Positions 1 to 10,901 of a stretch of DNA of 10,901 nt are shown here, piece by piece (position 1 is the stretch's first letter; each line of letters starts with the position of its first letter). This DNA comes from a virus. Location: UHGV virus genome UHGV-0071665. The stretch is one strand, 5' to 3'. The position numbers and the translations under genes are program-made. The notes under the pieces are model-generated. The model searched no databases. It was not told where the DNA came from and saw only the letters and a list, made by a program, of their open reading frames with translations.

Positions 1-25
1 TTAGAGAACGTGCGAGGAAAACAAG

Positions 26-196
26 GTGATTGACCAAAATCGAAGTTACGAACAAGGAAGTGTCGAGCGAGCTTTAACGTGCGCTAACTACGGTCAGAAG
101 CTGCATGTGCTGGAAGTTCACGTGTGTGAGCACTGCTGCGCAGAACTGATGAGCGATCCGAATAGCTCGATGCACGAGGAAGAAGACGATGAATGA
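26..196 (+). CDS. ninF: NinF-like small protein (56 aa, GTG start)
   Basis: ORF below the track's size cut-off, translated by hand: VIDQNRSYEQGSVERALTCANYGQKLHVLEVHVCEHCCAELMSDPNSSMHEEEDDE. Resembles lambda NinF as I recall it. GAGGA at 14-18 sits 7 nt upstream of the GTG. The stop overlaps the next gene's start. Confidence 0.55.
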   Translation: MIDQNRSYEQGSVERALTCANYGQKLHVLEVHVCEHCCAELMSDPNSSMHEEEDDE

Positions 197-911
197 GTTA
201 ATAAATGGCAATGCCATCAAAATGACAAGCATTGAAATCGCTGAGTTGGTTGGTAAGCGTCATGACAATGTGAAACGTACCATCGAAACGCTGGCTAAAA
301 ATGGTGTTATCCGGCTTCCTCAAATTGAGGTTTCCGAAAGAATCAATAACTTAGGGTTCAATGTTCAGTACGAGCATTACGTCTTCGAAGGCGAACAAGG
401 TAAGCGAGACAGTATTGTCGTTGTTGCCCAGTTGTCGCCGGAATTCACCGCTCGCCTTGTTGACCGCTGGCGAGAGCTTGAAGAAGCTGCGGTTAATATC
501 CCCAAAACGCTACCAGAAGCGTTGCGCCTTGCTGCTGATCTTGCTGAGCAGAAAATGCAACTGGAAAACCAGCTCGCAATTGCCGCACCTAAAGTTGAGT
601 TTGCCGATCGCGTTGGCGAGGCCAGCGGAATTTTGATTGGAAACTTTGCAAAGGTTGTCGGTATTGGTCCAAACAAACTGTTTGCGTGGATGCGCGATCA
701 CAAAATCCTTATTGCTTCAGGTTCCCGGCGCAATGTGCCAATGCAGGAATATATGGATCGCGGCTATTTCACAGTGAAAGAAACAGCGGTCAATACAAAT
801 CACGGAATACAGATATCGTTCACCACAAAAATCACCGGGCGCGGTCAACAGTGGCTGACCAGAAAGTTGCTCGATAACGGAATGCTGAAAGTAACAGGAG
901 AGGCTGCTTAA
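189..911 (+). CDS. Phage antirepressor, Rha-type N-terminal domain plus KilA-C/ANT C-terminal domain
   Basis: 240 aa ORF. N-terminus (SIEIAELVGKRHDNVKRTIETL) looks like a Rha regulatory domain; C-terminal half (VEFADRVGEASGIL...NKLFAWMRDHKIL) looks like a KilA-C/ANT domain. Sits where ninG is in lambda; stop overlaps the next start (TAATG). Confidence 0.7.
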   Translation: MNELINGNAIKMTSIEIAELVGKRHDNVKRTIETLAKNGVIRLPQIEVSERINNLGFNVQYEHYVFEGEQGKRDSIVVVAQLSPEFTARLVDRWRELEEAAVNIPKTLPEALRLAADLAEQKMQLENQLAIAAPKVEFADRVGEASGILIGNFAKVVGIGPNKLFAWMRDHKILIASGSRRNVPMQEYMDRGYFTVKETAVNTNHGIQISFTTKITGRGQQWLTRKLLDNGMLKVTGEAA

Positions 912-1201
912 TGGCTAACCTACGCAAAGAAGCGCGCGGCAGAGAATGCCAGGTACGTATTTACGGCGTATGCAATGGCAACCCTGAAACTACAGTTCTG
1001 GCACATTACCGGATGGCTGGAATTTGCGGAACGGGAATGAAGCCTGACGACCTGATCGGCGCATGGGCTTGTAGCGCGTGTCACGATGAAATCGACCGAC
1101 GCACCCATAATCTCGACAACAAAGACGCCAGGCTTTACCACCTCGAAGGCGTGATCAGGACGCAGGCGATACTGCTGAAGGAGGGGAAGATTAAGTCATG
1201 A
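911..1201 (+). CDS. ybcO: DUF1364 / YbcO-like putative nuclease
   Basis: 96 aa with the Cys/His pattern RGRECQVRIYGVCNGNPETTVLAHYR...ACSACHDEIDRR typical of YbcO from DLP12-type prophages. Start overlaps the upstream stop; its stop overlaps the rusA start. Confidence 0.8.
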   Translation: MANLRKEARGRECQVRIYGVCNGNPETTVLAHYRMAGICGTGMKPDDLIGAWACSACHDEIDRRTHNLDNKDARLYHLEGVIRTQAILLKEGKIKS

Positions 1202-1560
1202 ACGAATATCAGTTTGTGCTTCCATACCCGCCGTCGGTGAATACCTACTGGCGAAGACGGGGAAGCCAATACTACATCAGCGATAAAGGCCAGAAATACC
1301 GAAAAGACGTTCAGCAAATCATCCGCCAACTTAAGTTAGACATTTTCACCAAATCACGACTCCGCATCAAAGTCATCGCAGACGTTCCAGACTCCCGCCG
1401 CCGCGACCTCGACAACATCCTGAAAGGTTTACTCGACTCCCTTATCCACGCCGGATTTGCGGAAGACGACGAGCAATTCGATGACATTCGCGTAATTCGT
1501 GGCGTGAAAGTACCAGGCGGACGGCTTGGAATAAAAATCACCGAACTGGAGAACGTATGA
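1198..1560 (+). CDS. rusA: RusA Holliday junction resolvase
   Basis: 120 aa with the RusA signature (PYPPSVNTYW...DVPDSRRRDLDNILKGLLDSL...GGRLGIKITEL). ATGA start/stop overlap with neighbours on both sides. Confidence 0.9.
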   Translation: MNEYQFVLPYPPSVNTYWRRRGSQYYISDKGQKYRKDVQQIIRQLKLDIFTKSRLRIKVIADVPDSRRRDLDNILKGLLDSLIHAGFAEDDEQFDDIRVIRGVKVPGGRLGIKITELENV

Positions 1561-1751
1561 ACGCCACAATTCAAACGATACCAGAGCTTCTTATCCAGAC
1601 ACGAGGCAATCAGACCGAAGTGGCAAGGATGCTTTCCTGCGCAAGAGGAACAGTGCTTAAGTACAACCGAGACAGCAAAGGCGAGCGTCACGTAATAGTT
1701 AACGGCGTCCTGATGGTCAAACAGGGCAAGAGGGGAAGACGATGGGCATAA
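1557..1751 (+). CDS. ninH: NinH-like small DNA-binding protein
   Basis: 64 aa; TIPELLIQTRGNQTEVARMLSCARGTVLKY...VIVNGVLMV matches lambda NinH as I recall it. Overlaps rusA stop and Q start. Confidence 0.75.
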   Translation: MNATIQTIPELLIQTRGNQTEVARMLSCARGTVLKYNRDSKGERHVIVNGVLMVKQGKRGRRWA

Positions 1752-2230
1752 GAGAACTAAACCTCACCAAAGAGCAGCACGAGTGGCTGAATGGCTGGCT
1801 TGAACTGTGGGGGGCATGGGTTTATTCAGGTCGTCTTGAAAAGCGCATGAGCAGCGTAATAGCGAAGTTCATGGAGAGCGTAGAGCCGGGAAGAGTTATG
1901 ACAAGGCCAATGTGCAATGATGATGATGGAATGTTGATTTCTCAGGTCGTCGATTCCGTCATGTACATTGACAAGAAAGCCTTTGGCATCCTCCTCAGCT
2001 ACTACGCCCATGGATCTTCCAAGCACGCCATTGCATCTTACTATCATCGCGTCGCAAGACCTCGCAAGATGTTATGCCGGGGCGGAGGGCGCATTCAAAA
2101 ACCATCGCTCGCAACCTGTCGTCGGGAAGTTGACGAAATCCTCAATGCCTCGTTGTTTATGATTTACCCGGTTCTGGATAGTGCGTTTAAAAACCGGAAA
2201 CGTGTAGAGAAAATTAAACATGTAGCATAG
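1742..2230 (+). CDS. Late-gene antiterminator, Q family (not lambda-Q type)
   Basis: 162 aa ORF immediately after ninH and before a promoter-like sequence and hairpin terminator, the position Q occupies in lambdoid phages. Cys/His-containing C-terminal half. Family assignment rests on position and general resemblance. Confidence 0.6.
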   Translation: MGIRELNLTKEQHEWLNGWLELWGAWVYSGRLEKRMSSVIAKFMESVEPGRVMTRPMCNDDDGMLISQVVDSVMYIDKKAFGILLSYYAHGSSKHAIASYYHRVARPRKMLCRGGGRIQKPSLATCRREVDEILNASLFMIYPVLDSAFKNRKRVEKIKHVA

Positions 2231-2236
2231 AACGTG

Positions 2237-2267
2237 TTGACATCATTGAGCAAATGAGCAACACTAT
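2237..2267 (+). promoter_or_regulatory. Candidate late (PR'-like) promoter
   Basis: Perfect TTGACA at 2237-2242, 7 nt after the Q stop. The -10 is poor (aacact / cactat at 17-19 bp spacing), so the call rests mainly on the -35 and position. Confidence 0.25.
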
Positions 2268-2274
2268 TCGCATA

Positions 2275-2320
2275 AGCTGCCGTTAGTGACTCTTAAGTTG
2301 CAACGGTGGCTTTTTTATTT
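2275..2320 (+). terminator. Intrinsic terminator-like hairpin with T tract (tR'-like)
   Basis: Stem of about 10 bp (2275-2284 with 2302-2311, two G-U pairs) around a 17-nt loop, followed by ttttttattt at 2311-2320. Confidence 0.45.
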
Positions 2321-2395
2321 GGGTCAGTCGTATAAAGGTCATTACGGAAGGCTGTTAACCTTCTTATCGTGGTTCGAGTCCACGCTATCCCGCCA
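2321..2395 (+). tRNA. tRNA-Asn (anticodon GUU)-like gene, possibly degenerate
   Basis: Hand-folded cloverleaf. Anticodon arm gaagg/ctgttaa/ccttc (anticodon GTT); T-arm cgtgg/ttcgagt/ccacg; 3' end ctatccc-g-cca; D-arm with GG in the loop. Acceptor stem has two adjacent mismatches (positions 4-68 and 5-67). Confidence 0.5.
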
Positions 2396-2400
2396 AACAT

Positions 2401-2424
2401 GCTGGTTTAGCTCCAATGGTAGAG
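2401..2424 (+). other. Truncated tRNA-like 5' fragment (acceptor strand plus D-arm only)
   Basis: gctggtt-ta-gctc-caatggta-gag looks like tRNA positions 1-24, starting 5 nt after the preceding tRNA. No anticodon arm, T-arm or matching 3' acceptor strand follows; the sequence runs into the HNH ribosome-binding site. Confidence 0.3.
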
Positions 2425-2431
2425 GTGGTAA

Positions 2432-2857
2432 ATGCCGAGCAAAGATTACTATCTTAATCGAAGGGCTAGGCTTGCTAAGACCGTGGAAAAGTTGGGTGGT
2501 CGTTGCGCGAGTTGCGGATCCGAATATTCGCTTCAGTTTGACCACATAGACCCTTCCACCAAATCAGCAAATGTAAGCGAGATGCACTATCACTCAGATT
2601 AGGTGTTTTATGCTGAGGTTGAAAAGTGCCAACTACTATGTTCTGCATGCCACATTCAGAAAACCAAATTTGACCTTAGCTACTTAGTAGCTGGTGAGCT
2701 GAATGGTATGAGCAAGCTAACAATGGACAGCGTCCAGTTCATCAGAGAAAACTACATTCCACGACATAAGGTTTATGGAGCCAGAGGGCTAGGGAGAATG
2801 TTTGGTGTAACACATCAAACAGTGCTTTCAGCCTTAAATGGCGAAAGCTGGAAATAA
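2432..2857 (+). pseudogene. HNH endonuclease ORF interrupted by an in-frame amber codon (TAG 2600-2602)
   Basis: Hand translation from ATG 2432: MPSKDYYLNRRARLAKTVEKLGGRCASCGSEYSLQFDHIDPSTKSANVSEMHYHSD, then TAG, then the same frame continues as the track ORF 2603..2857 (VFYAEVEKCQLLCSACHIQKT...). Together the halves carry the HNH signature (CxxC, DH, then LLCxxCH). GAGG at 2422-2425 precedes the ATG. Confidence 0.6.
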
Positions 2858-2867
2858 GCTGCGCGTC

Positions 2868-2894
2868 AGAGGTTCGATTCCTTTGCCCGCTCCA
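2868..2894 (+). other. Orphan tRNA T-arm-like motif followed by CCA
   Basis: agagg/ttcgatt/ccttt forms a T-stem-loop, followed by gcccgct-cca. No matching D or anticodon arm upstream, since that sequence is the HNH coding end. Could be a tRNA remnant or chance. Confidence 0.25.
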
Positions 2895-2900
2895 GTAAAA

Positions 2901-2945
2901 GCTTTCCAGTCTGCGATGATGGGTTCCCCGGAGTGACTGGAAAGC
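2901..2945. repeat. Perfect 11-bp inverted repeat around a 23-nt loop
   Basis: gctttccagtc (2901-2911) and gactggaaagc (2935-2945) are exact reverse complements. No T tract follows. Confidence 0.6.
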
Positions 2946-3274
2946 GACCTGGTTTTGAATGGGCGCTGCTTTTTGCAAAATTGCTGTGTGAAAATACTGA
3001 CCTTTGGGTTCAGCGCTCATCCAAAAGCATCACGTGAATTCACCAACGCTCATGTACTCTCCAGGAAACAATAAGTGATTCTGAAAAGTTCCGGTTAGAT
3101 ATTGCCCCGGTCACCGGATGATTTTATCTTTTGGTTCGTGGTGAATCCCCCTATGCGGCGGGGCGTCCAGTCAAACTTTTTTGTCCAGGTTTGTTTGCGC
3201 GGAACTAGTCGGCTGGGGCTGTTCCACCGGGAGGCACCCGGCGCCACCTCCTTGACGGTATTGTTATTTTTCAT

Positions 3275-3301
3275 GCCTGTTCGTCCGAGCAGGCTTTTTT
3301 T
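3275..3301 (+). terminator. Rho-independent terminator
   Basis: 8-bp GC-rich stem (gcctgttc / gagcaggc, one G-U pair) with a 4-nt loop, followed by seven T (3295-3301). Confidence 0.7.
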
Positions 3302-3711
3302 GCCCGCATTATCTTCATTGAAAACTGGCAACTCAGAGAATCATCCAAATTAAAAAAGCAGCAACGAGAGCGATTACTAATACATTCTTCGCTTTTTCTC
3401 TTCTGCTGGCCTTCACAAAAGGATTCACTATCCGGCAGTGGCTACACACAAGTGATTCTGGGTTAATTAACTTTCCGCAGTAGGGGCAGGGCTTGATAAT
3501 CATTGGTACTAATTAAGTTGTGAGAACGTAGTCTCATTTAACCACATTTATCGAGTTGTTTTACTAATGGTCTAGTTATTTCAGACATATTCATCAATTT
3601 CAGGCTCACGGGAATCATCCGCTACGTGCTTTGTTGATAAATCCAGCCCGTGAAGCCTGACCCTTTTCAAACACACACACAGCACCATCCGGAAAATCGG
3701 AGGTGAGGCCT

Positions 3712-4035
3712 ATGAAAATGCCATACAAACAAGATTTCATCGCTGCGCTACTTGCCGCCAAGGAGCAGGGTATTGGTGCAATGCTGGCTTTTATCATGGC
3801 GTATCTGCGTGGTCGCTATAACGGCGGCGCGGTAACAAAAACGCTAATTGATGCGCTGATGTGCGCGATGATTGCCTGGTTCGTTCGTGACCTTCTGGAC
3901 TTTATCGGCCTGAGCAGCAACCTCGCCTACATAGCCAGCGTCTTTATTGGATACATCGGCACCGATTCGATCGGCAATCTTATTAAAAAACTTGCAGCAA
4001 AAAAGGCGGGAGTTGACGATGCAAACCAGTCCTGA
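3712..4035 (+). CDS. S: Class I holin, lambda S-like, with dual-start motif
   Basis: Near-collinear with lambda S as I recall it (MKMP...[11 protein letters not shown]...[11 protein letters not shown]...SNLAYI...GYIGTDSIG). Met-Lys-Met start at 3712/3718, GGAGG at 3699-3703. The track's GTG at 3703 is an in-frame alternative. Confidence 0.85.
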
Positions 4036-4468
4036 CGGAATTGCTCTGATAAAAAAATTTGAAGGTTGTCGGCTGACTGCTTACCCCGACCCCGGAACGG
4101 GAGATGCGCCGTGGACCATCGGCTATGGCTGGACCCATCCGGTTGACGGAAAGCCAGTAAAGCGCGGTATGACTATCGACCAGCAAACCGCTGACAGGCT
4201 TCTGAAAACAGGGCTTGTTGGTTATGAGAATGACGTGCTGAAAGTTGTCAGGGTGAAGCTGACACAAGGCCAGTTCGACGCACTGGTGTCGTTCGCTTAC
4301 AACGTTGGGTCGCGTGCTCTTTCCACATCTACACTGCTGAAAAAGCTGAATGCTGGCGATATAAAAGGCGCGGCAGATGAATTTCTGCGCTGGAATAAAT
4401 CAGGCGGAAAGGTGATGCCGGGGCTCACGAATCGCCGCAAGGCAGAGCGAGCTCTGTTCCTGTCATGA
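4019..4468 (+). CDS. Endolysin, GH24 (T4/P22 gp19-type lysozyme)
   Basis: FEG...YPDPG...WTIGYGWT catalytic region and a C-terminus ([14 protein letters not shown]) matching P22-type lysozymes. Start placed at ATG 4019, with an SD and overlapping the holin 3' end, rather than the track's 3947, which lies inside the holin. Confidence 0.85.
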
Positions 4469-4932
4469 TTAGCGCACTGGTTAAGCGTTACTGGCTGCAG
4501 TTGCTGGTGCTGGCGTTAATCGGCGCACTGGCTTTCTTCGTGAACCACTACCGCGACAACGCCATCACTTACAGAGACCAGCGCGATAAGGCCACTGAGA
4601 AACTCCTCCTGGCGACCGCCACCATTAAAGACATGCAGACCCGCCAGCGTGATGTCGCTGCACTGGATGCCAAATACACCGGAGAACTGGCTGATGCGAA
4701 AGAAACCATTGAGCGTCTGCATAGCGATGTCATTGCTGGCCGTAAGCGCCTGCAAGTCGCCGCCACCTGTGCAAAGTCAACGACCGGAGCCAGCAGCATG
4801 GGCGATGGAGAAAGCCCAAGACTTACAGCAGATGCTGAACTCAATTATTACCGTCTACGAAGTGGAATCGACAAGATAACCGCGCAGGTTAACTACCTGC
4901 AGGAATACATCAGGACGCAATGCCTGAAATAA
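4465..4932 (+). CDS. Rz: Rz-type inner-membrane spanin
   Basis: 155 aa with an N-terminal transmembrane anchor ([18 protein letters not shown]) and a charged, coiled-coil-like periplasmic domain. ATGA overlap with the endolysin stop. Confidence 0.8.
4694..4879 (+). CDS. Rz1: Rz1-type outer-membrane lipoprotein spanin, embedded in the +1 frame of Rz
   Basis: Within track ORF 4649..4879: [20 protein letters not shown] is a lipoprotein signal with lipobox, followed by a proline-rich mature part ([14 protein letters not shown]). GGAG sits 8 nt upstream of ATG 4694. Confidence 0.7.
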
Positions 4933-4963
4933 TTTTTTTGCAAATCACAAAGTCCATTTAATG

Positions 4964-4987
4964 AGCCTCGCGATGCGGGGCTTTTTG
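4964..4987 (+). terminator. Intrinsic terminator (first of a tandem pair)
   Basis: gcctcgc / gcggggc stem with a 3-nt loop, followed by ttttt. Confidence 0.6.
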
Positions 4988-4993
4988 CAATAA

Positions 4994-5018
4994 ATGCGTA
5001 CCGCAACGCATGTTTTTT
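4994..5018 (+). terminator. Intrinsic terminator (second of a tandem pair)
   Basis: atgcgt / acgcat 6-bp stem with a 6-nt loop, followed by g + tttttt. Confidence 0.6.
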
Positions 5019-5133
5019 ACACCGAACCTGCCCCTTTGGAATGGGCCTTTGAGGATACCAGTTAGTGCTGGCGAGCCTCGGTGGGCTGGTTTCCTGTGCG
5101 GCAAAGGTTCATTTCAAAGAGTAGGTACACGCT

Positions 5134-5631
5134 ATGAAATCATTAACCCTCTTCAATCAACCAATTCGTATCGGTGAAGATGGCATGATCTGCCTCACTG
5201 ATATGTGGAAAGCTAGTGGTAAAAGTGAATCTGAATCGCCTTACCACTACCTGCGAAACAAGCAGACCAAAGAGTTCTTAGCCGAGCTGGAGAAAAACCA
5301 CGAATCTGTGGTTTTTACTGAGCGCGGTGTACACGGTGGAACATATGGCGGGAAGTTTGTTGCTTACGATTATGCGGCTTGGTTAAACCCCGGGTTCAAG
5401 TACGCGGCCTATAAAGTCCTCGATGACTACTTCACCGGAGAACTTCAGCATCGCAACAGCTTAAGTGCGCAGCTCAACATGAAATGTCATGAGTTTGACC
5501 AGAAGAAAGACATGGCGAGCTTCTGCGGACAAGGGCTGGCAGCATGGCGCTATACGAAGCCAGTGTTGGTCGCTGAGATTAACTCCCTGGCTAACCAGCT
5601 GCAGATTACGATCCCCGGGCTTCCGGGATGA
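5134..5631 (+). CDS. KilA-N domain protein
   Basis: 165 aa; the N-terminal pattern IRIGEDGMICLTDMWKASGK...EFLAEL...GG.YGGKFV..D.A.W..P matches the KilA-N fold signature as I recall it. Confidence 0.65.
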   Translation: MKSLTLFNQPIRIGEDGMICLTDMWKASGKSESESPYHYLRNKQTKEFLAELEKNHESVVFTERGVHGGTYGGKFVAYDYAAWLNPGFKYAAYKVLDDYFTGELQHRNSLSAQLNMKCHEFDQKKDMASFCGQGLAAWRYTKPVLVAEINSLANQLQITIPGLPG

Positions 5632-5885
5632 GTGATCGTGTCATTGAATGCGCCTCCAGAGCGGGGCGCGACTTCTCAGAGTTCATGAAAGGCGAGAAGG
5701 GCATGAGGGAAGCATTGGCCTCGGTGGATGAGTTTGGCGAGCAGCTGCGCCTCAACGGCTGTGTCAATCATCACTTTGTTAGCTACATGATGCGGAACTC
5801 GATCATGCAGGCATTCATGGACATGGCAAAAGCCGAGAGGAAAGAAGAGCGCCGGCGTAAGCGAGCGGAAGCAAAAGCGAAGTAG
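5628..5885 (+). CDS. Hypothetical small protein with a basic C-terminal tail
   Basis: 85 aa ORF, ATGA-coupled to the KilA-N gene; C-terminus KAERKEERRRKRAEAKAK. No family recognised. Confidence 0.45.
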   Translation: MSDRVIECASRAGRDFSEFMKGEKGMREALASVDEFGEQLRLNGCVNHHFVSYMMRNSIMQAFMDMAKAERKEERRRKRAEAKAK

Positions 5886-6237
5886 CCATTACAAAGCCCA
5901 TCTACGGGTGGGCTTGATAATGAAACCGTGATTTACATCCCCACAATCCGGGTATGTAAAAGATAGTTCAGGCGAGAACAGATTTAACTAAATCTGTGCA
6001 CCACCAGTTACGGCAGTACCACGAAGCAACCCAAGCCAGTAAGTGGGGAAATAACACTGGCAGCCACTGAAAGATGAACCTCCAGCCTTATGGCAAAAAA
6101 GATTCTTTGTGGTGGCGGGCTGATGGAAAGACATCGGTTATTGCAGAGGCCATTCAATGAGTGGTCTCGACAATGGCTTATACCCTGCACGGGATAACTT
6201 AACTGATATCCCTTTTAACGGATAAACGGAGCCAACA

Positions 6238-6393
6238 ATGGCAAAGCTCACCGACAAACAAGAGCTGTTTGCCCGTGAGTACCTGAAAGATTTAAACGCC
6301 ACACAGGCAGCTATCAGGGCGGGTTGGGCAAAAGCTCAACAACATGCCGTATTACCGCGCGAAACAATACGCGCAGATGCTTGGCATCGATGA
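6238..6393 (+). pseudogene. Terminase small-subunit N-terminal stub (51 codons)
   Basis: ORF below the track's size cut-off, translated by hand: MAKLTDKQELFAREYLKDLNATQAAIRAG, then unrelated sequence (WAKAQQHAVLPRETIRADAWHR) and a stop. The first part matches the conserved N-terminus of small terminase subunits as I recall it. Good SD (GGAG, 8 nt spacing). Its 3' end overlaps the next ORF by 50 nt. Confidence 0.55.
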
Positions 6394-7981
6394 AAACACG
6401 CTGATGGCGATGCGGCGCGGCATGAATGGCTTTACCGCCGATTACCAGTCGATGCTGCAAAAGACAGGGTTCAACGCTGATAAAGCGGCTGTTCAGTCCA
6501 ACAAATTCATGACGTCCATGCGCGGGCTTACGTCGCTGTTCGGCATCATGCGGGACAAGATCGGCTCAAACCTCGCTGGTGGCCTGGCTGGTTCGCTGGA
6601 CAGCCTGCGGCGGCGCATCCTCGACAATTTCCCGAAGATTGAAGAGACGCTGACCAGAGTTATTAAAGGCGTGATCTGGCTTGCGAACGCATTCACGAGA
6701 ATGGCGTGGCGGCTGATACAGGGCGCTGGCTCTGTCATCGACTGGTGGAAGCGTCTTGACGATGGCAGTAAAAATCTGCTGAAAATATTCGGTGCTCTAC
6801 TGGTCGCATGGCGTCTGCTTAATTCTGCGTTCCTGAAATCCCCGATTGGAATTATCACCACACTGATTCTGGCGATCGGATTGCTGTACGACGATTACCA
6901 GACGTGGAAAGAGGGCGGTAAAAGCCTGATTGACTGGTCCAAATGGCAGCCAGAAATTGAGCAGGCAAAGAAGGTGTTCAAGTGGCTGCGCGATAAGTTT
7001 CTGGAGCTCAAGGACAACCTCGGCGGCTGGAAAAATACGCTCACCATCCTGTTTGGCTTTCTGGCTGGTGCGAAGCTGGTCTCCATGCTCACTGGCATCG
7101 GGCGACTTGTCGCCGGATTTATGGGGCTTGGTAAGGCAATTGGCGGCTCTATTGGTGGGCTGGGTAAGCTGGCGCAGGGGATCGCACAGCTGGCAATCAA
7201 GAATCCATGGTTGCTTATGTTCATTCCTGCCAACAATACGCCGACCACCAGTGAAGAAATGGCGTCGATTGGCGGTATAGGCAGCAATATCGTACCTGAA
7301 AGGCAGCAGGCATATGAGGCGCTGAGAAAGGAAAATCCCGGCAAAGACTTTTTCACTGATGAGCAAATCCAGCGAAAAATTCAGGAGATGGGACTGGAGC
7401 CGGAGCAGCGAGCGCAGTCGGTTAAGCGACCTCAGGCGACGGCCCAGGGCAAGGTATTGCTCGACTGGATGGGGCCAATGTTCAATAAACTGGAGTCGCT
7501 TTATCAGCTGCCAGCTGGCCTGTTGAAAAGCGTGGCGATCACCGAGTCGGGTGGTAACCAGTTCGCCATATCCGGCGCAGGCGCGAAAGGACTGTTTCAG
7601 TTTATGGATGGCACGGCGCGCGACATGGGCCTGCGTGGGAATGATGTATTCGACCCGGAAAAGTCAGCTCAGGCAGCCGCTAAGTACCTCAGCCAGCTGT
7701 TGCGGCAGAACGGCGGAGACCTTAGCAAAGCACTGGCATCATATAACTGGGGGATCGGGAATGTTAAGCGTTATGGAATGGGGCTAATGCCGCAGGAAAC
7801 GCGCAACTACATTCCGAAAGTGATGAGCAATATGCCCACCAGCGCCCCGGTGATTCAGCAGGAAACGAACATTAACATCCACGGCGTTTCCGATCCGCGC
7901 GAGGCTGCCCGTTTGACTGTTGACCGTCAAAAGGGCGTGAATTCACAGTTAACCCAGCAACTCCCCGCAGGACCGAGATAA
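6344..7981 (+). CDS. Tape-measure protein, C-terminal portion, with lytic transglycosylase (SLT) domain; probably 5'-truncated
   Basis: 545 aa with Gly-rich hydrophobic stretches (GIGRLVAGFMGLGKAIGGSIGGLGKLAQGIA) and an SLT-type motif (ITESGGNQFAISGAGAKGLFQFM...AAKYL...ASYNWGIG). First in-frame ATG has no convincing RBS, and the frame is open upstream only to 6296. Confidence 0.7.
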   Translation: MPYYRAKQYAQMLGIDENTLMAMRRGMNGFTADYQSMLQKTGFNADKAAVQSNKFMTSMRGLTSLFGIMRDKIGSNLAGGLAGSLDSLRRRILDNFPKIEETLTRVIKGVIWLANAFTRMAWRLIQGAGSVIDWWKRLDDGSKNLLKIFGALLVAWRLLNSAFLKSPIGIITTLILAIGLLYDDYQTWKEGGKSLIDWSKWQPEIEQAKKVFKWLRDKFLELKDNLGGWKNTLTILFGFLAGAKLVSMLTGIGRLVAGFMGLGKAIGGSIGGLGKLAQGIAQLAIKNPWLLMFIPANNTPTTSEEMASIGGIGSNIVPERQQAYEALRKENPGKDFFTDEQIQRKIQEMGLEPEQRAQSVKRPQATAQGKVLLDWMGPMFNKLESLYQLPAGLLKSVAITESGGNQFAISGAGAKGLFQFMDGTARDMGLRGNDVFDPEKSAQAAAKYLSQLLRQNGGDLSKALASYNWGIGNVKRYGMGLMPQETRNYIPKVMSNMPTSAPVIQQETNINIHGVSDPREAARLTVDRQKGVNSQLTQQLPAGPR

Positions 7982-8583
7982 TGGATATTTTATCAGCGAT
8001 TTTTCGCCAGCAATCCCGGCGAATTGGCCTGCTGATCCCCAGCGTGGTCGTTTCCGAAAAGCATTCTGATGCGCTCGAAATTACTGAGCACCCGGTGGAG
8101 AAGCCAACAACGAATAGCGCGTCGGGTTTCATCGCCGATCATGCGTATAAGCGCCCCAGCGAAGTCACGATGGAATGCGGCTTCGCAGGTGGCGGTTCGT
8201 TGCTGGACTTCATTGATACATCGTCAATCGGCCTCAGCGCCGGACTTAGCCCGAAAGAGACCTATCAGCAACTACTGGATCTCCAGTCCTCTCGGGTGCC
8301 GTTCGATGTAGTGACCGGAAAGCGGGTTTACAGCAATATGCTGGTGCGAGCCATCGAGGTGACAACGGATAAAACCAGCGAGAACGTGCTGAACTGCACG
8401 CTTACCCTGCGTGAAGTGATCATGTCGCAGACGCAGAGCGTTAGCGTTGCAGATAAATCAGATATGCAGGATGGCGTCAGCACATCGGCGGTGCAGAATT
8501 CCGGGATGAAATCCACTACACCGCCAAACGAATCCTTGCTGAGCCAGCTGGGCGGAAGCGTTACATCAGCATTCGGGGGATGA
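7981..8583 (+). CDS. Putative tail-tip or baseplate protein (family not recognised)
   Basis: 200 aa ORF; start overlaps the tape-measure stop (ATAATG). Assigned by position only. Confidence 0.45.
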   Translation: MDILSAIFRQQSRRIGLLIPSVVVSEKHSDALEITEHPVEKPTTNSASGFIADHAYKRPSEVTMECGFAGGGSLLDFIDTSSIGLSAGLSPKETYQQLLDLQSSRVPFDVVTGKRVYSNMLVRAIEVTTDKTSENVLNCTLTLREVIMSQTQSVSVADKSDMQDGVSTSAVQNSGMKSTTPPNESLLSQLGGSVTSAFGG

Positions 8584-8584
8584 T

Positions 8585-8890
8585 ATGCAGTTTAACGAAA
8601 TACCGCTTTCTCCTGACAATCAGCAGTTCCGCGTTTTGCTGGGCAATACCACGTATACACTCAGGATCATCTGACGTGATGCGGCTGGCTGGATTATGGA
8701 CGTGATGGATAGCGGCGGTGCCGCGCTTCTCTCTGGCGTACCTCTACTGACCGGCGTAAACCTTTTACGACAATATCCACAGCTTGGCATTGATGGCGCG
8801 CTGGTGGTGGCGACCGATAAGGGCGCACCAGACGAGCCCACCAAAACCAACCTCGGCACATACAGCCACCTCATTTTCGTACAGGAGTAG
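8585..8890 (+). pseudogene. Small tail-associated ORF with an in-frame TGA (8672-8674)
   Basis: ATG 8585 is 2 nt after the upstream stop with a GGGGGA SD. The frame reads MQFNEIPLSPDNQQFRVLLGNTTYTLRII, then TGA, then continues in the same frame (RDAAGWIMDV...) to TAG 8890, 3 nt before the next gene. The track shows only the distal part (8696..8890). Confidence 0.45.
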
Positions 8891-8892
8891 AA

Positions 8893-9960
8893 ATGTCTCT
8901 TAACTGGATGCGCCATTTTGAGCTGCAACTGTTGGACCAGAACGGGCAGGGCGTTTCCCTGTCTGACTTTAAGGTCACGTTCCAGATCGAGTGGGCAGAC
9001 ACACGCTGGCCACGCGTGGCGAACGTGAAAATTTACAACCTTTCGACCGATACCACGAACAAGATACTGGGGCAGGAGTTTGCAAAAATTCGCATCATTG
9101 CCGGGTATGACGGTATTGCGCCGGATGTTGATGCGAGCCAGGTTGGTGTCGCCCGGGAGATTTCACCAGACCAGGTAGGGCAGGTGAACGGTCAGAACTA
9201 CGGCCTGATATTTGACGGTGATATTCGCTTCACCGTCACCGGGAAGGACAACATCACCGATTCCTGGGTGCTGATTCAGGCCATCAGTAACCACGAAGCG
9301 TTCCTCTACGCGACTACCATCACCACGCTTGCCGCTGGTTATACCGTTGCGGACCTGCACCGGGCGACTATGCAGGATTTCAACGCGTTCGGCGTGACGC
9401 AGGGCATTACCGGTGACTTTCCTGATACCGTGTTTCCTCGTGGCCGTGCGATTTATTCATCCACCCGTAACGTGATGGATAATATTGCTGCGCAGTGCAA
9501 AGCGACATGGCAGCTGGTGGATGGTCAGGTCCAGATGGTGCCGGAGGATAAATATATTCACGAAGCCATTGTGTTGAATGCCGATACTGGCCTGATCGGT
9601 ATGCCGCAACAAACGATGGGCGGCGGAGTAAACGTGCGGTGCCTGATAAACCCAAACATCCGTATTAATGGTCTTATCCAGCTCGATCAGGCTTCGGTGT
9701 ACCGCGCCGCGCTCGGTAATAGCGAAATAGCACAGTCGCCCGGTCGCATCACCGAAACAGAAGAGAACGGCAACCGCGTACTGACCGGCACAACGTCACA
9801 GGCTGCCAGCATTGCGACAGATGGCGTTTATATCGTCAAAGCTATCGATTATACTGGTGACACCAGAGGTCAGGCGTGGTACATGGATTTGATGTGTTTT
9901 GCGCGTGGGGCTCGTGACCTGATTAGCCAGTCGACTATAGCTCGCTCAGGAGGAAATTAA
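8893..9960 (+). CDS. Putative tail-tip or baseplate hub protein (family not recognised)
   Basis: 355 aa ORF with a CAGGAG SD upstream, tightly packed after the small ORF. Assigned by position in the post-tape-measure block. Confidence 0.45.
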   Translation: MSLNWMRHFELQLLDQNGQGVSLSDFKVTFQIEWADTRWPRVANVKIYNLSTDTTNKILGQEFAKIRIIAGYDGIAPDVDASQVGVAREISPDQVGQVNGQNYGLIFDGDIRFTVTGKDNITDSWVLIQAISNHEAFLYATTITTLAAGYTVADLHRATMQDFNAFGVTQGITGDFPDTVFPRGRAIYSSTRNVMDNIAAQCKATWQLVDGQVQMVPEDKYIHEAIVLNADTGLIGMPQQTMGGGVNVRCLINPNIRINGLIQLDQASVYRAALGNSEIAQSPGRITETEENGNRVLTGTTSQAASIATDGVYIVKAIDYTGDTRGQAWYMDLMCFARGARDLISQSTIARSGGN

Positions 9961-10851
9961 GTGGGTACAAATAAGAACGGAATTCGATATAGCGCACTTT
10001 TTCTTTCCGGGTTGCTCTTATCCGGGGGCGCGAGTGCAGGCTTTAATTCCGCGCAGAACGCTGAGTACAAAAGACGTCCAGGATGGCAGCCGATAGTAAT
10101 TTTATCGACAGATGATTGTCAGACATGGAAATCTAAAGGGAAGTCACTAATTGACTGGAGTGGCGAGATCTGTGGTCCTGACGGGTTGATTAAGGCAATC
10201 AATAAAAAGCCGGAGAATATACCAGCTTTTTATGCTGCATATCATGAGTACGGCACAGGTGGAGTTAGGGCTATCGATGTAAGAGATAATTCTCAGCTAA
10301 ATTATCTCAATTTTGTAAATGATTTAGCTAAGAAACTTTCTTCTTCGGCTGTTGTATTAAAGATTTATGATGATTATATCATTGATAGAAAACCCATGGG
10401 GCTTGCAGAGGTTTCACGAGAAAATTTTGTAAAACAGCTAAATGAGTTATCGCTGAAGCAACCTGCCATCTATCAAAAAATGAACGACGTAGCCAAGGCT
10501 GATTACGAGAAAAGTAGTAATGTTCACAGTAACGAAAAGCTTGGCGTGAATTACAAAACAGTCTGTGGTCCTTATACGATTGATCTGTCTTCTGCTGATG
10601 GTTGGGCCAGAATTAATGGCGCAAAACCAGAGACGCAAAAAATTAGCCCAATCGGCTCTGGTGGTAGCACCAAAGGGGAACCGGATAACATCAAGATGGA
10701 GTGGATGGCTGCCACTAATCAACCCGGCCGCTGGGTTGGGCTTGAGTACATCAAGCGCAACGGAAAAGCTATTCTCAACGCACAGTGGTTGCAGGCCAGC
10801 ATAGACGCGCCGCGCCAGTATGCAACATACGACTGCCGAAAAGTAAAATAG
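9961..10851 (+). CDS. Secreted/periplasmic protein with Sec signal peptide; moron-like accessory gene
   Basis: GTG start with a strong AGGAGG SD 7 nt upstream. N-terminus MGTNKNGIRYSALFLSGLLLSGGASA|GF is a classic signal peptide with an AXA site and no lipobox Cys. Four Cys in the mature part. Central part about 33% GC (10261-10460) against about 51-57% at the ends. Followed by a hairpin. Confidence 0.6.
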   Translation: MGTNKNGIRYSALFLSGLLLSGGASAGFNSAQNAEYKRRPGWQPIVILSTDDCQTWKSKGKSLIDWSGEICGPDGLIKAINKKPENIPAFYAAYHEYGTGGVRAIDVRDNSQLNYLNFVNDLAKKLSSSAVVLKIYDDYIIDRKPMGLAEVSRENFVKQLNELSLKQPAIYQKMNDVAKADYEKSSNVHSNEKLGVNYKTVCGPYTIDLSSADGWARINGAKPETQKISPIGSGGSTKGEPDNIKMEWMAATNQPGRWVGLEYIKRNGKAILNAQWLQASIDAPRQYATYDCRKVK

Positions 10852-10868
10852 CCCGCCAGATAGGCGGG
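10850..10868. terminator. GC-rich hairpin after the last gene, possibly bidirectional
   Basis: gcccgcc / ggcgggc 7-bp stem with a 5-nt loop. No T tract on the + strand; on the - strand the hairpin is followed by a T-rich run (ctattttactttt). Confidence 0.4.
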
Positions 10869-10901
10869 CATGCGTCAAAAATATTGAGCTTTAATTATAA
10901 T

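What the first reader, a model, noticed from the sequence alone, without database searches (positions are those of the whole stretch)
10111..10161. Peptide motif DDxQTWKxxGKSLIDWS shared between the tape-measure protein and the secreted protein, with different codons
The tape measure (6890-6940, LYDDYQTWKEGGKSLIDWSKW) and the secreted protein (10111-10161, STDDCQTWKSKGKSLIDWSGE) share 14 of 21 residues, far beyond chance for unrelated proteins. The DNA is only about 60% identical and both serines use different codon families (AGC vs TCA, TCC vs AGT). That points to protein-level constraint or old homology rather than a recent copy. The secreted protein could carry a tape-measure-derived module, for example to mimic or compete for a tape-measure binding partner.
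Basis: seen in the sequence. Interest (0 to 1): 0.6.

Follow-up and report, generated by a model that had tools for sequence, protein, structure and literature searches.

The report
Tape-measure motif shared with exported lipoprotein
The best-conserved 17 residues of this phage family's tail tape-measure protein also occur in an exported accessory protein encoded 3 kb downstream; the match is real and kept by selection, and its likeliest but untested use is to interfere with entry of related phages.

Summary
In detail: DDYQTWKEGGKSLIDWS (6890-6940) and DDCQTWKSKGKSLIDWS (10111-10161) share 14/17 residues but only 32/51 bases. No other protein pair in the window exceeds 8/17, and 300 shuffles reach at most 10/17.

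The tape-measure copy is the most conserved block of its family. It is kept in about 50 enterobacterial loci and in Acinetobacter phages, whatever lytic domain follows it.

The second protein is an exported, mostly lipidated accessory protein. It has a signal peptide, a helical N-domain that holds the motif between two conserved cysteines, and a small beta-barrel (phrog_3443). Most relatives carry only the barrel at this position. The N-domain is rare and low in GC (0.39 against 0.54), and it is under purifying selection (dN/dS 0.05-0.13). It also occurs in 356-aa lipoproteins on integrase/primase islands. Profile comparison matches the two families only at the motif.

So this is old, selected, motif-sized similarity, not a recent copy. 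My best guess (about 0.35) is interference with tape-measure-dependent entry, that is, superinfection exclusion by mimicry. The main rival is a shared fold or envelope-docking element with an unrelated role.

The window's prophage is itself defective: an 11.6-kb deletion truncates the tape measure, and the plug gene has a nonsense codon.

The parts
6890..6940 (+). Tape-measure signature motif DDYQTWKEGGKSLIDWS. It lies directly after a hydrophobic segment (SPIGIITTLILAIGLL) and before an amphipathic, charged stretch.
   Evidence: for the sequence. It is the most conserved 17-aa block in 27 family members (0.87 against 0.56 overall). It is kept in Acinetobacter fragments P0052-54 and is found in 111 phage records. 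The low-confidence AF2 model puts a helix ending at TWK, a loop EGGKSLID, and a helix from W198.
6344..7981 (+). Remnant of the tape-measure gene. The ORF starts at internal Met149 of a 693-aa protein. It contains hydrophobic segments, the motif and a C-terminal SLT lytic transglycosylase domain (aa 379-479).
   Evidence: phrog_2276 tail length tape measure, E = 5.8e-144. Pfam SLT, E = 2e-25. 97.8% identical to aa 149-693 of the L001 tape measure.
6238..6393 (+). Small-terminase N-terminal fragment. Its frame runs out of frame into tape-measure DNA. The deletion junction is at 6323-6325.
   Evidence: Pfam Terminase_2, profile positions 1-31 only. Window 6001-6325 matches L001 65-390 and window 6323-6600 matches L001 12001-12278, so 11.6 kb of head, neck, sheath, tube and chaperone genes are missing.
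9961..10851 (+). Gene for the 296-aa exported accessory protein. GTG start, preceded by Shine-Dalgarno AGGAGG at 9948-9953. It abuts the stop codon of the hub gene.
   Evidence: 18 homologues, 43-99% identical. dN/dS 0.05-0.13. GC 0.44 against 0.54 for the tail genes.
9961..10041 (+). Signal peptide. In 15 of 19 homologues it ends in a lipobox (V/L-S/T/A-G-C). In this copy codon 23 (10027-10029, GGC) encodes Gly instead of Cys, leaving an A-S-A|G signal-peptidase-I-like site.
   Evidence: Alignment A1, L001 ORF, sequence. The cleavage type is inferred from the sequence pattern only.
10063..10515 (+). All-helical N-domain (aa 35-185) with no Pfam, PHROG, NCBIfam or PADLOC family. It is the rare, low-GC (0.39) part of the gene.
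   Evidence: AF2 model, pLDDT 73-97 across most of the domain. No family hits. Only 15 cluster representatives among 1.84 billion proteins. No fold relatives found.
10111..10161 (+). The motif copy DDCQTWKSKGKSLIDWS. It forms the end of helix 42-57 plus the start of loop 58-72.
   Evidence: Invariant D51, D52, C53, G60, W66, C71 in A1.
10117..10119 (+). Cys53 codon (Tyr in the tape measure). It is invariant in the family. Inferred to form a disulfide with Cys71 that would staple the motif loop in the periplasm.
   Evidence: Conservation.
10171..10173 (+). Cys71 codon, invariant; the inferred disulfide partner of Cys53.
10555..10842 (+). C-terminal eight-stranded beta-barrel domain (aa 199-294) with conserved Cys202 and Cys292. 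It equals the small secreted protein that occupies this position in most related prophages.
10851..10869 (.). GC-rich hairpin (7 G-C pairs) immediately after the stop codon. In L001 it lies between this gene and a convergent DUF4236 gene.
7981..8583 (+). Dit-like baseplate protein (context).
   Evidence: Pfam Dit_like, E = 7.7e-31.
8585..8890 (+). Baseplate plug gene, inactivated by a TGG>TGA nonsense codon at 8672-8674 (context: prophage decay).
8893..9960 (+). Baseplate hub gene (context). The accessory gene follows it directly.
   Evidence: phrog_196 baseplate hub, E = 8.8e-85.

Best explanation
Shown: the 17-residue stretch is the signature of a tape-measure family of temperate enterobacterial and Acinetobacter myoviruses. 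It lies at the end of a hydrophobic helix and runs into a Gly-Gly turn. The same stretch occurs in the helical N-domain of an exported, usually lipidated, accessory protein. That protein's gene is low-GC cargo placed directly after the baseplate hub gene, and it is fused to a small periplasmic beta-barrel that all relatives carry at this position. Both copies are held by purifying selection, and the similarity is limited to the motif.

Inferred mechanism: an infecting virion ejects its tape measure into the periplasm, where its two hydrophobic hairpins enter the inner membrane. The long charged loop that begins with the motif would then stay on the periplasmic side. There it would contact a partner, which could be another tape-measure chain, a tail-tip protein or a host envelope factor. 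The resident element's exported protein would display the same motif, probably held by a Cys53-Cys71 disulfide. It would occupy that partner or intercalate into the tape-measure assembly, so that related phages cannot complete DNA entry. That is superinfection exclusion by molecular mimicry.

The descriptive part I hold at about 0.9. The exclusion-by-mimicry mechanism I hold at about 0.35.
For: The match is far beyond chance.

The tape-measure motif is the most conserved block of its family. It survives where the flanks fall to about 35% identity and where the C-terminal lytic domain is swapped. This implies an essential contact rather than filler.

The other protein has a strong Shine-Dalgarno sequence and a signal peptide, and most homologues have a lipobox without Asp at position +2. 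It therefore acts in the periplasm, where only incoming tape measures are met; virions assemble in the cytoplasm (established phage biology).

It has moron features. GC drops to 0.36-0.45 between hub and gpV. A convergent small gene and a hairpin follow it. The slot has variable content, including tandem arrays of 4-7 barrel paralogues.

dN/dS is 0.05-0.13 with saturated dS. The ORF is intact in this window although the prophage has lost 11.6 kb and its plug gene.

The N-domain is otherwise found only in 356-aa lipoproteins about 1.2 kb downstream of the integrase of integrase/primase islands. Several of these islands are inserted in prophages of this same family.

In both AF2 models the motif is helix end plus Gly loop.

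There is precedent for envelope proteins that block tape-measure-dependent entry: Ltp of TP-J34 (title cited) and HK97 gp15.
Against: There is no functional evidence of any kind.

No convincing promoter of its own was found; the one 9/12 match is at background frequency. The gene abuts the hub gene, so it may be expressed only late with the tail genes rather than from the repressed prophage.

The conserved Trp, Leu and Ile of the motif may simply pack into the N-domain's hydrophobic core, and so be conserved for folding rather than for display. I could not read the model's coordinates.

Homologues predicted to be sorted to the outer membrane would sit far from an inner-membrane-embedded tape measure.

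The periplasmic location of the tape-measure loop is inferred. The tape-measure model has pLDDT 40.

Remote N-domain members match the motif less well (9-10 of 16; P = 3.4e-4). That is unexpected if mimicry of an invariant target were the family's purpose.

No PADLOC hit.
Confidence: 0.35

Rival explanations
1. The motif is a shared structural or envelope-docking element with no functional link to the tape measure. It is an old helix-end plus Gly-turn module, either homologous or exchanged long ago. It would serve folding, or docking at the membrane or peptidoglycan surface next to an anchor: a transmembrane helix in the tape measure, a lipid anchor in the lipoprotein. The exported protein would do something else for the host or the element.
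For: Similarity is confined to about 20-40 columns and vanishes when the motif is masked. In both proteins the motif is close to a membrane anchor in sequence. It is rich in Trp and Lys, which are typical interfacial residues (general knowledge). The N-domain model is a compact helical bundle with high pLDDT around the motif, which is compatible with buried hydrophobic residues. Remote members keep only the skeleton DDCxTYKxGGxS..W.
Against: 14/17 identity between otherwise unrelated proteins of the same element is extreme for a generic structural turn. Neither the 1.84-billion-protein search with the N-domain nor the PDB sequence searches found any other protein family matching these regions at significance; a motif-only match would fall below that threshold, so its absence elsewhere was not directly tested. 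The N-domain is found only on this phage family and on islands, several of which lie within that family's prophages.
Confidence: 0.3
2. The protein works for its own phage during lytic growth. It would be a late periplasmic factor co-expressed with the tail genes. Possible roles: neutralising stray tape-measure or lytic activity, preventing progeny from injecting into already infected or lysed cells, or preparing the envelope for release.
For: The gene abuts the hub gene on the same strand, with a Shine-Dalgarno sequence but no clear promoter. The barrel-only version is syntenic in nearly every relative, including sequenced phages. That pattern looks more like a core accessory gene than a sporadic moron.
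Against: The N-domain, which carries the motif, is sporadic: 4 of 5426 complete E. coli genomes against 2568 that match some part of the surrounding 5-kb tail-gene region. It has foreign composition. The same N-domain travels on non-phage islands fused to a different C-domain. The ORF stays intact in decayed prophages, such as the window.
Confidence: 0.15
3. The motif is a recent copy or gene conversion from the resident tape-measure gene.
For: The two genes are 3 kb apart on the same element.
Against: Only 32/51 nt are identical. 7 of the 14 conserved codons differ, and two differ by serine codon family. There is no flanking nucleotide similarity. Motif GC is 0.39 against 0.53. The motif is present in N-domain homologues that lie far from any tape measure.
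Confidence: 0.02
4. The match is a chance resemblance or a low-complexity repeat.
For: None beyond the short length of the match.
Against. The motif is not repetitive, and it is conserved in register in both families.
Confidence: 0.01

Closest known systems
Ltp, the superinfection-exclusion lipoprotein of Streptococcus thermophilus phage TP-J34 (Bebeacua et al. 2013, Mol Microbiol 89:152, cited)
   Same: A prophage-encoded, lipid-anchored, helical extracytoplasmic protein whose identified target is the tape measure of incoming phages. It is the nearest functional analogue of what I propose.
   Different: Ltp comes from a Gram-positive host. It consists of helix-turn-helix-like repeats (own knowledge). 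There is no sequence or fold similarity here. Ltp is not reported to copy a tape-measure motif. No exclusion has been shown for the present protein.
HK97 gp15 moron (Cumby et al. 2012; summarised in PMC3594210)
   Same: An accessory gene with deviant composition inside the tail operon of a temperate enterobacterial phage. Its envelope-located product blocks DNA entry in a way that depends on the incoming phage's tail. It has bacterial homologues outside prophages.
   Different: gp15 is a small inner-membrane protein of the YebO family with its own promoter and terminator. The present protein is a 296-aa exported two-domain protein with no clear promoter and no similarity to gp15.
T5 Llp and T4 Spackle (Llp: PMC9586334; Spackle: own knowledge)
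   Same: Phage-encoded periplasm-facing proteins that protect the infected or lysogenic cell from related phages. Llp is an outer-membrane lipoprotein. Spackle is a small secreted inhibitor of the tail-borne lysozyme.
Host-like motifs embedded in mycobacteriophage tape measures (Piuri & Hatfull 2006, PMC1796659)
   Same: Short motifs inside tape-measure proteins that resemble secreted or cell-wall proteins encoded elsewhere. This is a precedent for motif-sized sharing between a tape measure and an exported protein.
   Different: Those motifs are enzymatic peptidoglycan-hydrolase modules shared with host proteins, and they are dispensable for viability. The present motif is 17 residues, non-enzymatic, nearly invariant in its family, and shared with an accessory protein of the same phage.

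Membership tests
Tail tape-measure protein (phrog_2276 type, myovirus with DUF3383/E217_gp31-like sheath) | Sequence membership over the full length | tested here: met
   phrog_2276, E = 5.8e-144 for the window ORF and 7e-213 for the full-length L001 protein.
Tail tape-measure protein (phrog_2276 type, myovirus with DUF3383/E217_gp31-like sheath) | Gene position after the tail tube and assembly-chaperone genes and before the Dit/plug/hub genes | tested here: met
   Met in the intact relatives L001, L039 and L040. In the window the upstream genes are deleted.
Tail tape-measure protein (phrog_2276 type, myovirus with DUF3383/E217_gp31-like sheath) | Complete, translatable gene | tested here: not met
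   The window copy lacks codons 1-140. The remaining ORF begins at an internal Met, behind an out-of-frame terS fragment.
Bacterial lipoprotein | Lipobox [LVI][ASTVI][GAS]C at the end of the signal peptide | tested here: not met
   The window copy has L-S-G-G; Gly23 replaces Cys. 15 of 19 homologues and nearly all 356-aa relatives read (14 viral-contig copies; P0019-P0022, P0025, P0030, P0031) do have the Cys. The family is therefore lipoprotein, but this copy is probably a soluble periplasmic form.
phrog_3443 (small secreted phage protein, function unknown) | Profile match to the family and synteny after the hub gene | tested here: met
   aa 198-296, E = 3.4e-34. Syntenic homologues in about 30 loci.
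Ltp-type superinfection-exclusion lipoproteins | Sequence or fold similarity to Ltp (HTH-like repeat domains) | tested here: not met
Ltp-type superinfection-exclusion lipoproteins | Blocks DNA injection, with escape mutations in the tape measure | not testable with these tools
   Needs plating, DNA-entry and escape-mutant experiments.
Moron (independently acquired accessory gene in a prophage) | Base composition different from the neighbouring genes | tested here: met
   GC 0.44 for the gene and 0.39 for the N-domain, against 0.54 for the tail genes.
Moron (independently acquired accessory gene in a prophage) | Own promoter and terminator; expression from the repressed prophage | tested here: inconclusive
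   There is a hairpin after the stop codon. Only a 9/12 promoter-like match lies inside the hub gene, at background frequency. Expression cannot be tested here.
Known anti-phage defence proteins (PADLOC-DB) | Profile match | tested here: not met
   No hit for the 296-aa protein or for the 356-aa relative.

The most novel reading that the evidence does not exclude
The N-domain is a decoy. It would be a disulfide-stapled periplasmic copy of the invariant tape-measure signature. Prophages and satellite-like islands would deploy it to poison tape-measure assembly, or to titrate the tape measure's envelope partner. This would give broad exclusion of a whole family of myoviruses that cannot easily mutate the motif. 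It would be the first case of superinfection exclusion by mimicry of a tape-measure segment, and it would also point to the function of that segment.
Probability: 0.3. Interest if true: 0.75.

Novelty: new variant of a known kind. Interest (0 to 1): 0.5.

Why it matters
What tape-measure proteins do after ejection is poorly understood, and so is which of their segments contacts what. This work identifies a nearly invariant 17-residue signature in a widespread tape-measure family that includes Acinetobacter and Klebsiella phages of therapeutic interest. It also identifies an exported protein that carries the same signature.

If the exported protein competes with the tape measure, it offers an easy handle on the motif's partner, through pull-downs and escape mutants. 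It would also explain a resistance determinant that could limit the host range of such phages.

If it does not compete, the finding is still a clean example of motif-sized sharing between a virion protein and accessory cargo. It also defines two uncharacterised protein families and an annotation gap: in the complete E. coli genomes that carry the gene it is mostly unannotated, and in the one record inspected it is called a pseudogene fragment.

Tried and rejected
- Serine codon families as evidence for convergence: rejected. Ser12 flips between AGC and TCN within the tape-measure orthologues themselves.
- Co-occurrence of the exported protein with motif-bearing tape measures: uninformative, because every tape measure of the family has the motif.
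- Co-variation of the two motifs within a locus: not testable, because the tape-measure motif is almost invariant.
- A wider homology between the N-domain and the tape measure, including the weak second blastp HSP against the start of the SLT domain: rejected. The GKVLLDW stretch there is not conserved in the family, and profile comparison finds nothing once the motif is masked.
- Internal repeats of the motif in the tape measure (GSVIDWW at aa 129-135): only the WW and L are conserved, so this is not a repeat of the motif.
- Pfam, NCBIfam, PHROGs and PADLOC on the N-domain: no hits.
- P0028, a 3135-aa fibre-like protein that matched the N-domain in 8 stretches: judged a compositional repeat artefact after reading the sequence.
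- Word-indexed protein search with the tape-measure segment: returned only fragments. They were still useful for showing motif conservation in Acinetobacter.
- Literature search for the motif strings: no paper found.
- Structure prediction of the tape-measure segment: low confidence (pLDDT 40), so it was used only for local secondary structure.

Full report
**1. The observation**

ORF 6344-7981 contains DDYQTWKEGGKSLIDWS at 6890-6940. ORF 9961-10851 contains DDCQTWKSKGKSLIDWS at 10111-10161. Fourteen of 17 residues are identical, against 32 of 51 bases. Seven of the 14 conserved codons differ, and both serines switch codon family. No similarity continues into the flanks at either the DNA or the protein level.

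Pairwise blastp gives E = 3e-6. Among all 136 pairs of the window's 17 plausible proteins, the next-best 17-residue match is 8/17. Three hundred shuffles of the second protein give 6-10/17.

**2. What the first protein is**

It belongs to a tape-measure family (phrog_2276, E = 5.8e-144) and has a C-terminal SLT lytic transglycosylase domain. The best complete relative is an E. coli prophage beside the bio operon (L001). Its gene order is terS, TerL, portal, head genes, sheath, tube, chaperone, a 693-aa tape measure, Dit-like protein, plug, hub, the 296-aa gene, a convergent DUF4236 gene, then gpV, gpW, gpJ and the fibre genes.

The window differs from L001 by an exact 11.6-kb deletion. Window 6001-6325 matches L001 65-390, and window 6323-6600 matches L001 12001-12278. 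This joins terS codon ~29 to tape-measure codon ~141 at a 3-nt overlap. The 'tape measure' ORF here therefore starts at internal Met149, behind an out-of-frame terS stub. The plug gene also carries a TGG>TGA nonsense codon at 8672-8674. The prophage is defective.

**3. The motif within the tape-measure family**

I compared the window copy with 26 tape measures from GTDB genomes and one phage. Residues 181-203 form the most conserved block of the protein: mean column conservation is 0.87, against 0.56 overall. The consensus is (D/E)DYxTWKEGG(K/Q)SLIDWxKW.

The block is kept when the C-terminal lytic domain is SLT and when it is a different 'RNNNPGNI' module. It is kept in Acinetobacter fragments that are only ~35% identical elsewhere. 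tblastn finds it in 111 phage records: 86 Acinetobacter, 11 Klebsiella, and records from Escherichia, Salmonella, Hafnia, Yersinia and Providencia. A further 22 viral-contig loci show the same. No Pfam model covers it, no solved structure is related, and no paper contains the string.

The motif follows a hydrophobic segment (SPIGIITTLILAIGLL) and opens a ~46-residue highly charged stretch that ends at two more hydrophobic segments. A low-confidence AF2 model (pLDDT 40 overall, 50-69 around the motif) ends a helix at TWK, puts a loop at EGGKSLID, and starts a new helix at W198.

Position 17 (Ser) is variable in the family, so the real shared core is DDxxTWKxxGKSLIDW.

**4. What the second protein is**

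The gene starts at GTG 9961, seven bases after AGGAGG, and abuts the hub stop codon. The product has three parts.

- Signal peptide. Fifteen of 19 homologues have a lipobox Cys at position 23, followed by Ala, Thr or Val rather than Asp. The window copy and its 99% identical cluster have Gly23, leaving an ASA|G site. An intact prophage (L040) carries that same variant.
- N-domain, residues ~35-185. It is an all-helical domain (AF2 pLDDT mostly 80-97) with no family in Pfam, NCBIfam, PHROGs or PADLOC and no fold relatives. The motif is the end of helix 42-57 plus the start of loop 58-72. It is bracketed by invariant Cys53, which is Tyr in the tape measure, and Cys71.
- C-domain, residues 199-294. 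It forms an eight-stranded barrel with two more conserved cysteines and belongs to phrog_3443, E = 3.4e-34.

**5. Distribution of the two domains**

In most related prophages and in 20 sequenced phages, the gene after the hub is only the barrel: a 113-136-aa secreted protein. Serratia aquatilis (L006) has seven tandem paralogues and Pseudescherichia vulneris (L012) has four.

The N-domain is rare. It has 15 cluster representatives among 1.84 billion proteins. It occurs in no record of the 50,697-phage collection. It occurs in 4 of 5426 complete E. coli genomes, whereas 2568 genomes match some part of the surrounding 5-kb tail-gene region.

Its DNA has GC 0.39, against 0.505 for the barrel part of the same gene and 0.54 for the tail genes. 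The N-domain therefore looks like a later insertion into the barrel gene. The gene evolves under strong purifying selection: dN/dS is 0.05-0.13 with dS near or at saturation. At 82% protein identity between window and L001, it is far more diverged than the flanking tail genes, which are 97-98% identical.

**6. The N-domain family outside this slot**

Its other members are ~350-375-aa lipoproteins with a different C-terminal domain that ends ...WAGMARVYSSRGY.

- In Kosakonia (L014) the gene lies beside smpB, with an IS fragment nearby. A near-identical copy occurs in Phytobacter (L015), whose surroundings I did not examine.
- In 14 viral contigs a 356-aa copy occurs. In the one contig I examined gene by gene (L058), it lies inside a ~12-kb insertion that carries a P4-type integrase and a DUF927/Toprim primase-helicase.
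- In the contigs that retain recognisable phage genes, the lipoprotein gene lies between genes of this same phage family, at different places: portal|MCP, gpW|gpJ and MCP|Dit.

These remote members carry (D/N/E)DCxTY(K/R)xGGxS(L/V/F)(F/L)xW, which is 9-10 of 16 positions of the tape-measure consensus.

Profile-profile comparison aligns the post-hub family to the tape-measure family at the motif with 94% probability, E = 9e-8. It aligns the island family to the same columns, in register, with P = 3.4e-4. With the motif columns removed from the tape-measure alignment, nothing remains (P = 0.2-0.26).

The resemblance is therefore a deep feature of the N-domain family and is strictly motif-sized. 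It is strongest in the copies that live next to the tape measure.

**7. Interpretation**

A recent copy or gene conversion is excluded by the nucleotide data. The serine codon-family argument does not separate convergence from old homology, because Ser12 flips between AGC and TCN among tape-measure orthologues themselves. Both remain possible. What is secure is long-standing selection on the same peptide in two proteins carried by the same family of elements.

Virions assemble in the cytoplasm and the second protein is exported. It could therefore meet a tape measure only when another phage injects into the cell. That fact, the moron-like features, its retention in a decayed prophage, its place about 1.2 kb downstream of the integrase on a mobile island, and the precedents of Ltp (target: tape measure) and HK97 gp15 together make interference with tape-measure-dependent entry the best single hypothesis. 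I put it at about 0.35.

The mechanistic steps are all inferred: a periplasmic location for the tape-measure loop, a Cys53-Cys71 staple, and competition for a partner or intercalation into the tape-measure assembly.

The main rival (0.3) is that the motif is a fold or envelope-docking element and the protein's job is unrelated. A late, pro-phage periplasmic role (0.15) is also open, because no independent promoter is evident.

**8. Comparison with what is known, and novelty**

The protein is not a sequence or fold member of any known exclusion family. It resembles Ltp, HK97 gp15, T5 Llp and T4 Spackle only in logic.

Motif sharing between a tape measure and exported proteins has a precedent in mycobacteriophage tape measures. 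Those motifs are enzymatic and host-derived.

I rate this as a new variant of a known kind, namely prophage accessory envelope proteins, with moderate interest. The signature motif and its mirror image are real, undescribed and experimentally tractable, but their function is unproven.

Noticed in passing
window 6001-6600 (junction 6323-6325): An exact 11.6-kb deletion relative to the intact E. coli prophage L001 (L001 391-12000). It removes TerL, portal, head, neck, sheath, tube and chaperone genes and the first ~140 codons of the tape measure. terS codon ~29 is fused out of frame to tape-measure DNA at a 3-nt overlap.
   Followed up: yes
window 8672-8674: The baseplate plug gene (8585-8890) carries a TGG>TGA nonsense codon at codon 30. 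This is a second sign that the prophage is decaying, while the exported-protein gene stays intact.
   Followed up: yes
window 10027-10029: The lipobox cysteine of the family is Gly (GGC) in this copy and in its 99% identical cluster (81 member sequences), which includes an intact prophage (L040). This implies a switch from lipoprotein to a soluble periplasmic form. Another homologue (P0007) has Tyr at this position.
   Followed up: partly
L006 8362-13274; L012 629-2846: Tandem arrays of paralogues of the small secreted barrel protein (phrog_3443) after the hub gene: seven copies in Serratia aquatilis and four in Pseudescherichia vulneris. This looks like a diversifying accessory family.
   Followed up: no
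L058 7387-19355 (also L057, L060, L062-L064, L069): A ~12-kb element carries a P4-type integrase, a 356-aa N-domain lipoprotein about 1.2 kb downstream of it, a second integrase fragment and a DUF927/Toprim primase-helicase. Across these loci the 356-aa gene lies between genes of the same myovirus family at different positions (portal|MCP, gpW|gpJ, MCP|Dit). In Kosakonia (L014) the same lipoprotein lies beside smpB. The element may be a satellite-like island; its ends and att sites were not determined.
   Followed up: partly
tape-measure alignment, window aa 300-500 (window 7241-7843) against L002-L004, L007, L009, L010, L028, L031, L032: The C-terminal lytic module of the tape measure is swapped among close relatives: an SLT domain in some, and a different module with an 'RNNNPGNI' signature in others. 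The N-terminal part and the motif stay conserved.
   Followed up: no
L001 15639-16529 (NZ_CP143627) and hits H117-H119: In 3 of the 4 complete E. coli genomes that carry the gene, no annotated feature lies under the match to the N-domain. In the one record inspected in detail (NZ_CP143627), only the 3' end is annotated, as a pseudogene 'missing N-terminus', although the full 296-codon ORF with GTG start is intact.
   Followed up: partly
window 2432-2857: Two adjacent same-frame ORFs (2432-2602 and 2603-2857) together read like one HNH endonuclease (…DHIDP…, …LCSACH…) split by an in-frame stop codon at 2600-2602.
   Followed up: no
window 1-6243: The left part of the window is a lambdoid/P22-like late-control and lysis region: Rha/Ant-like protein, RusA, Q-like antiterminator, holin, lysozyme, Rz and KilA-N protein. 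Window 5900-6243 is 95-99% identical to HK620, Sf6 and JEP4-type phages. It is joined to a myovirus structural module, so the parent phage was a mosaic.
   Followed up: partly
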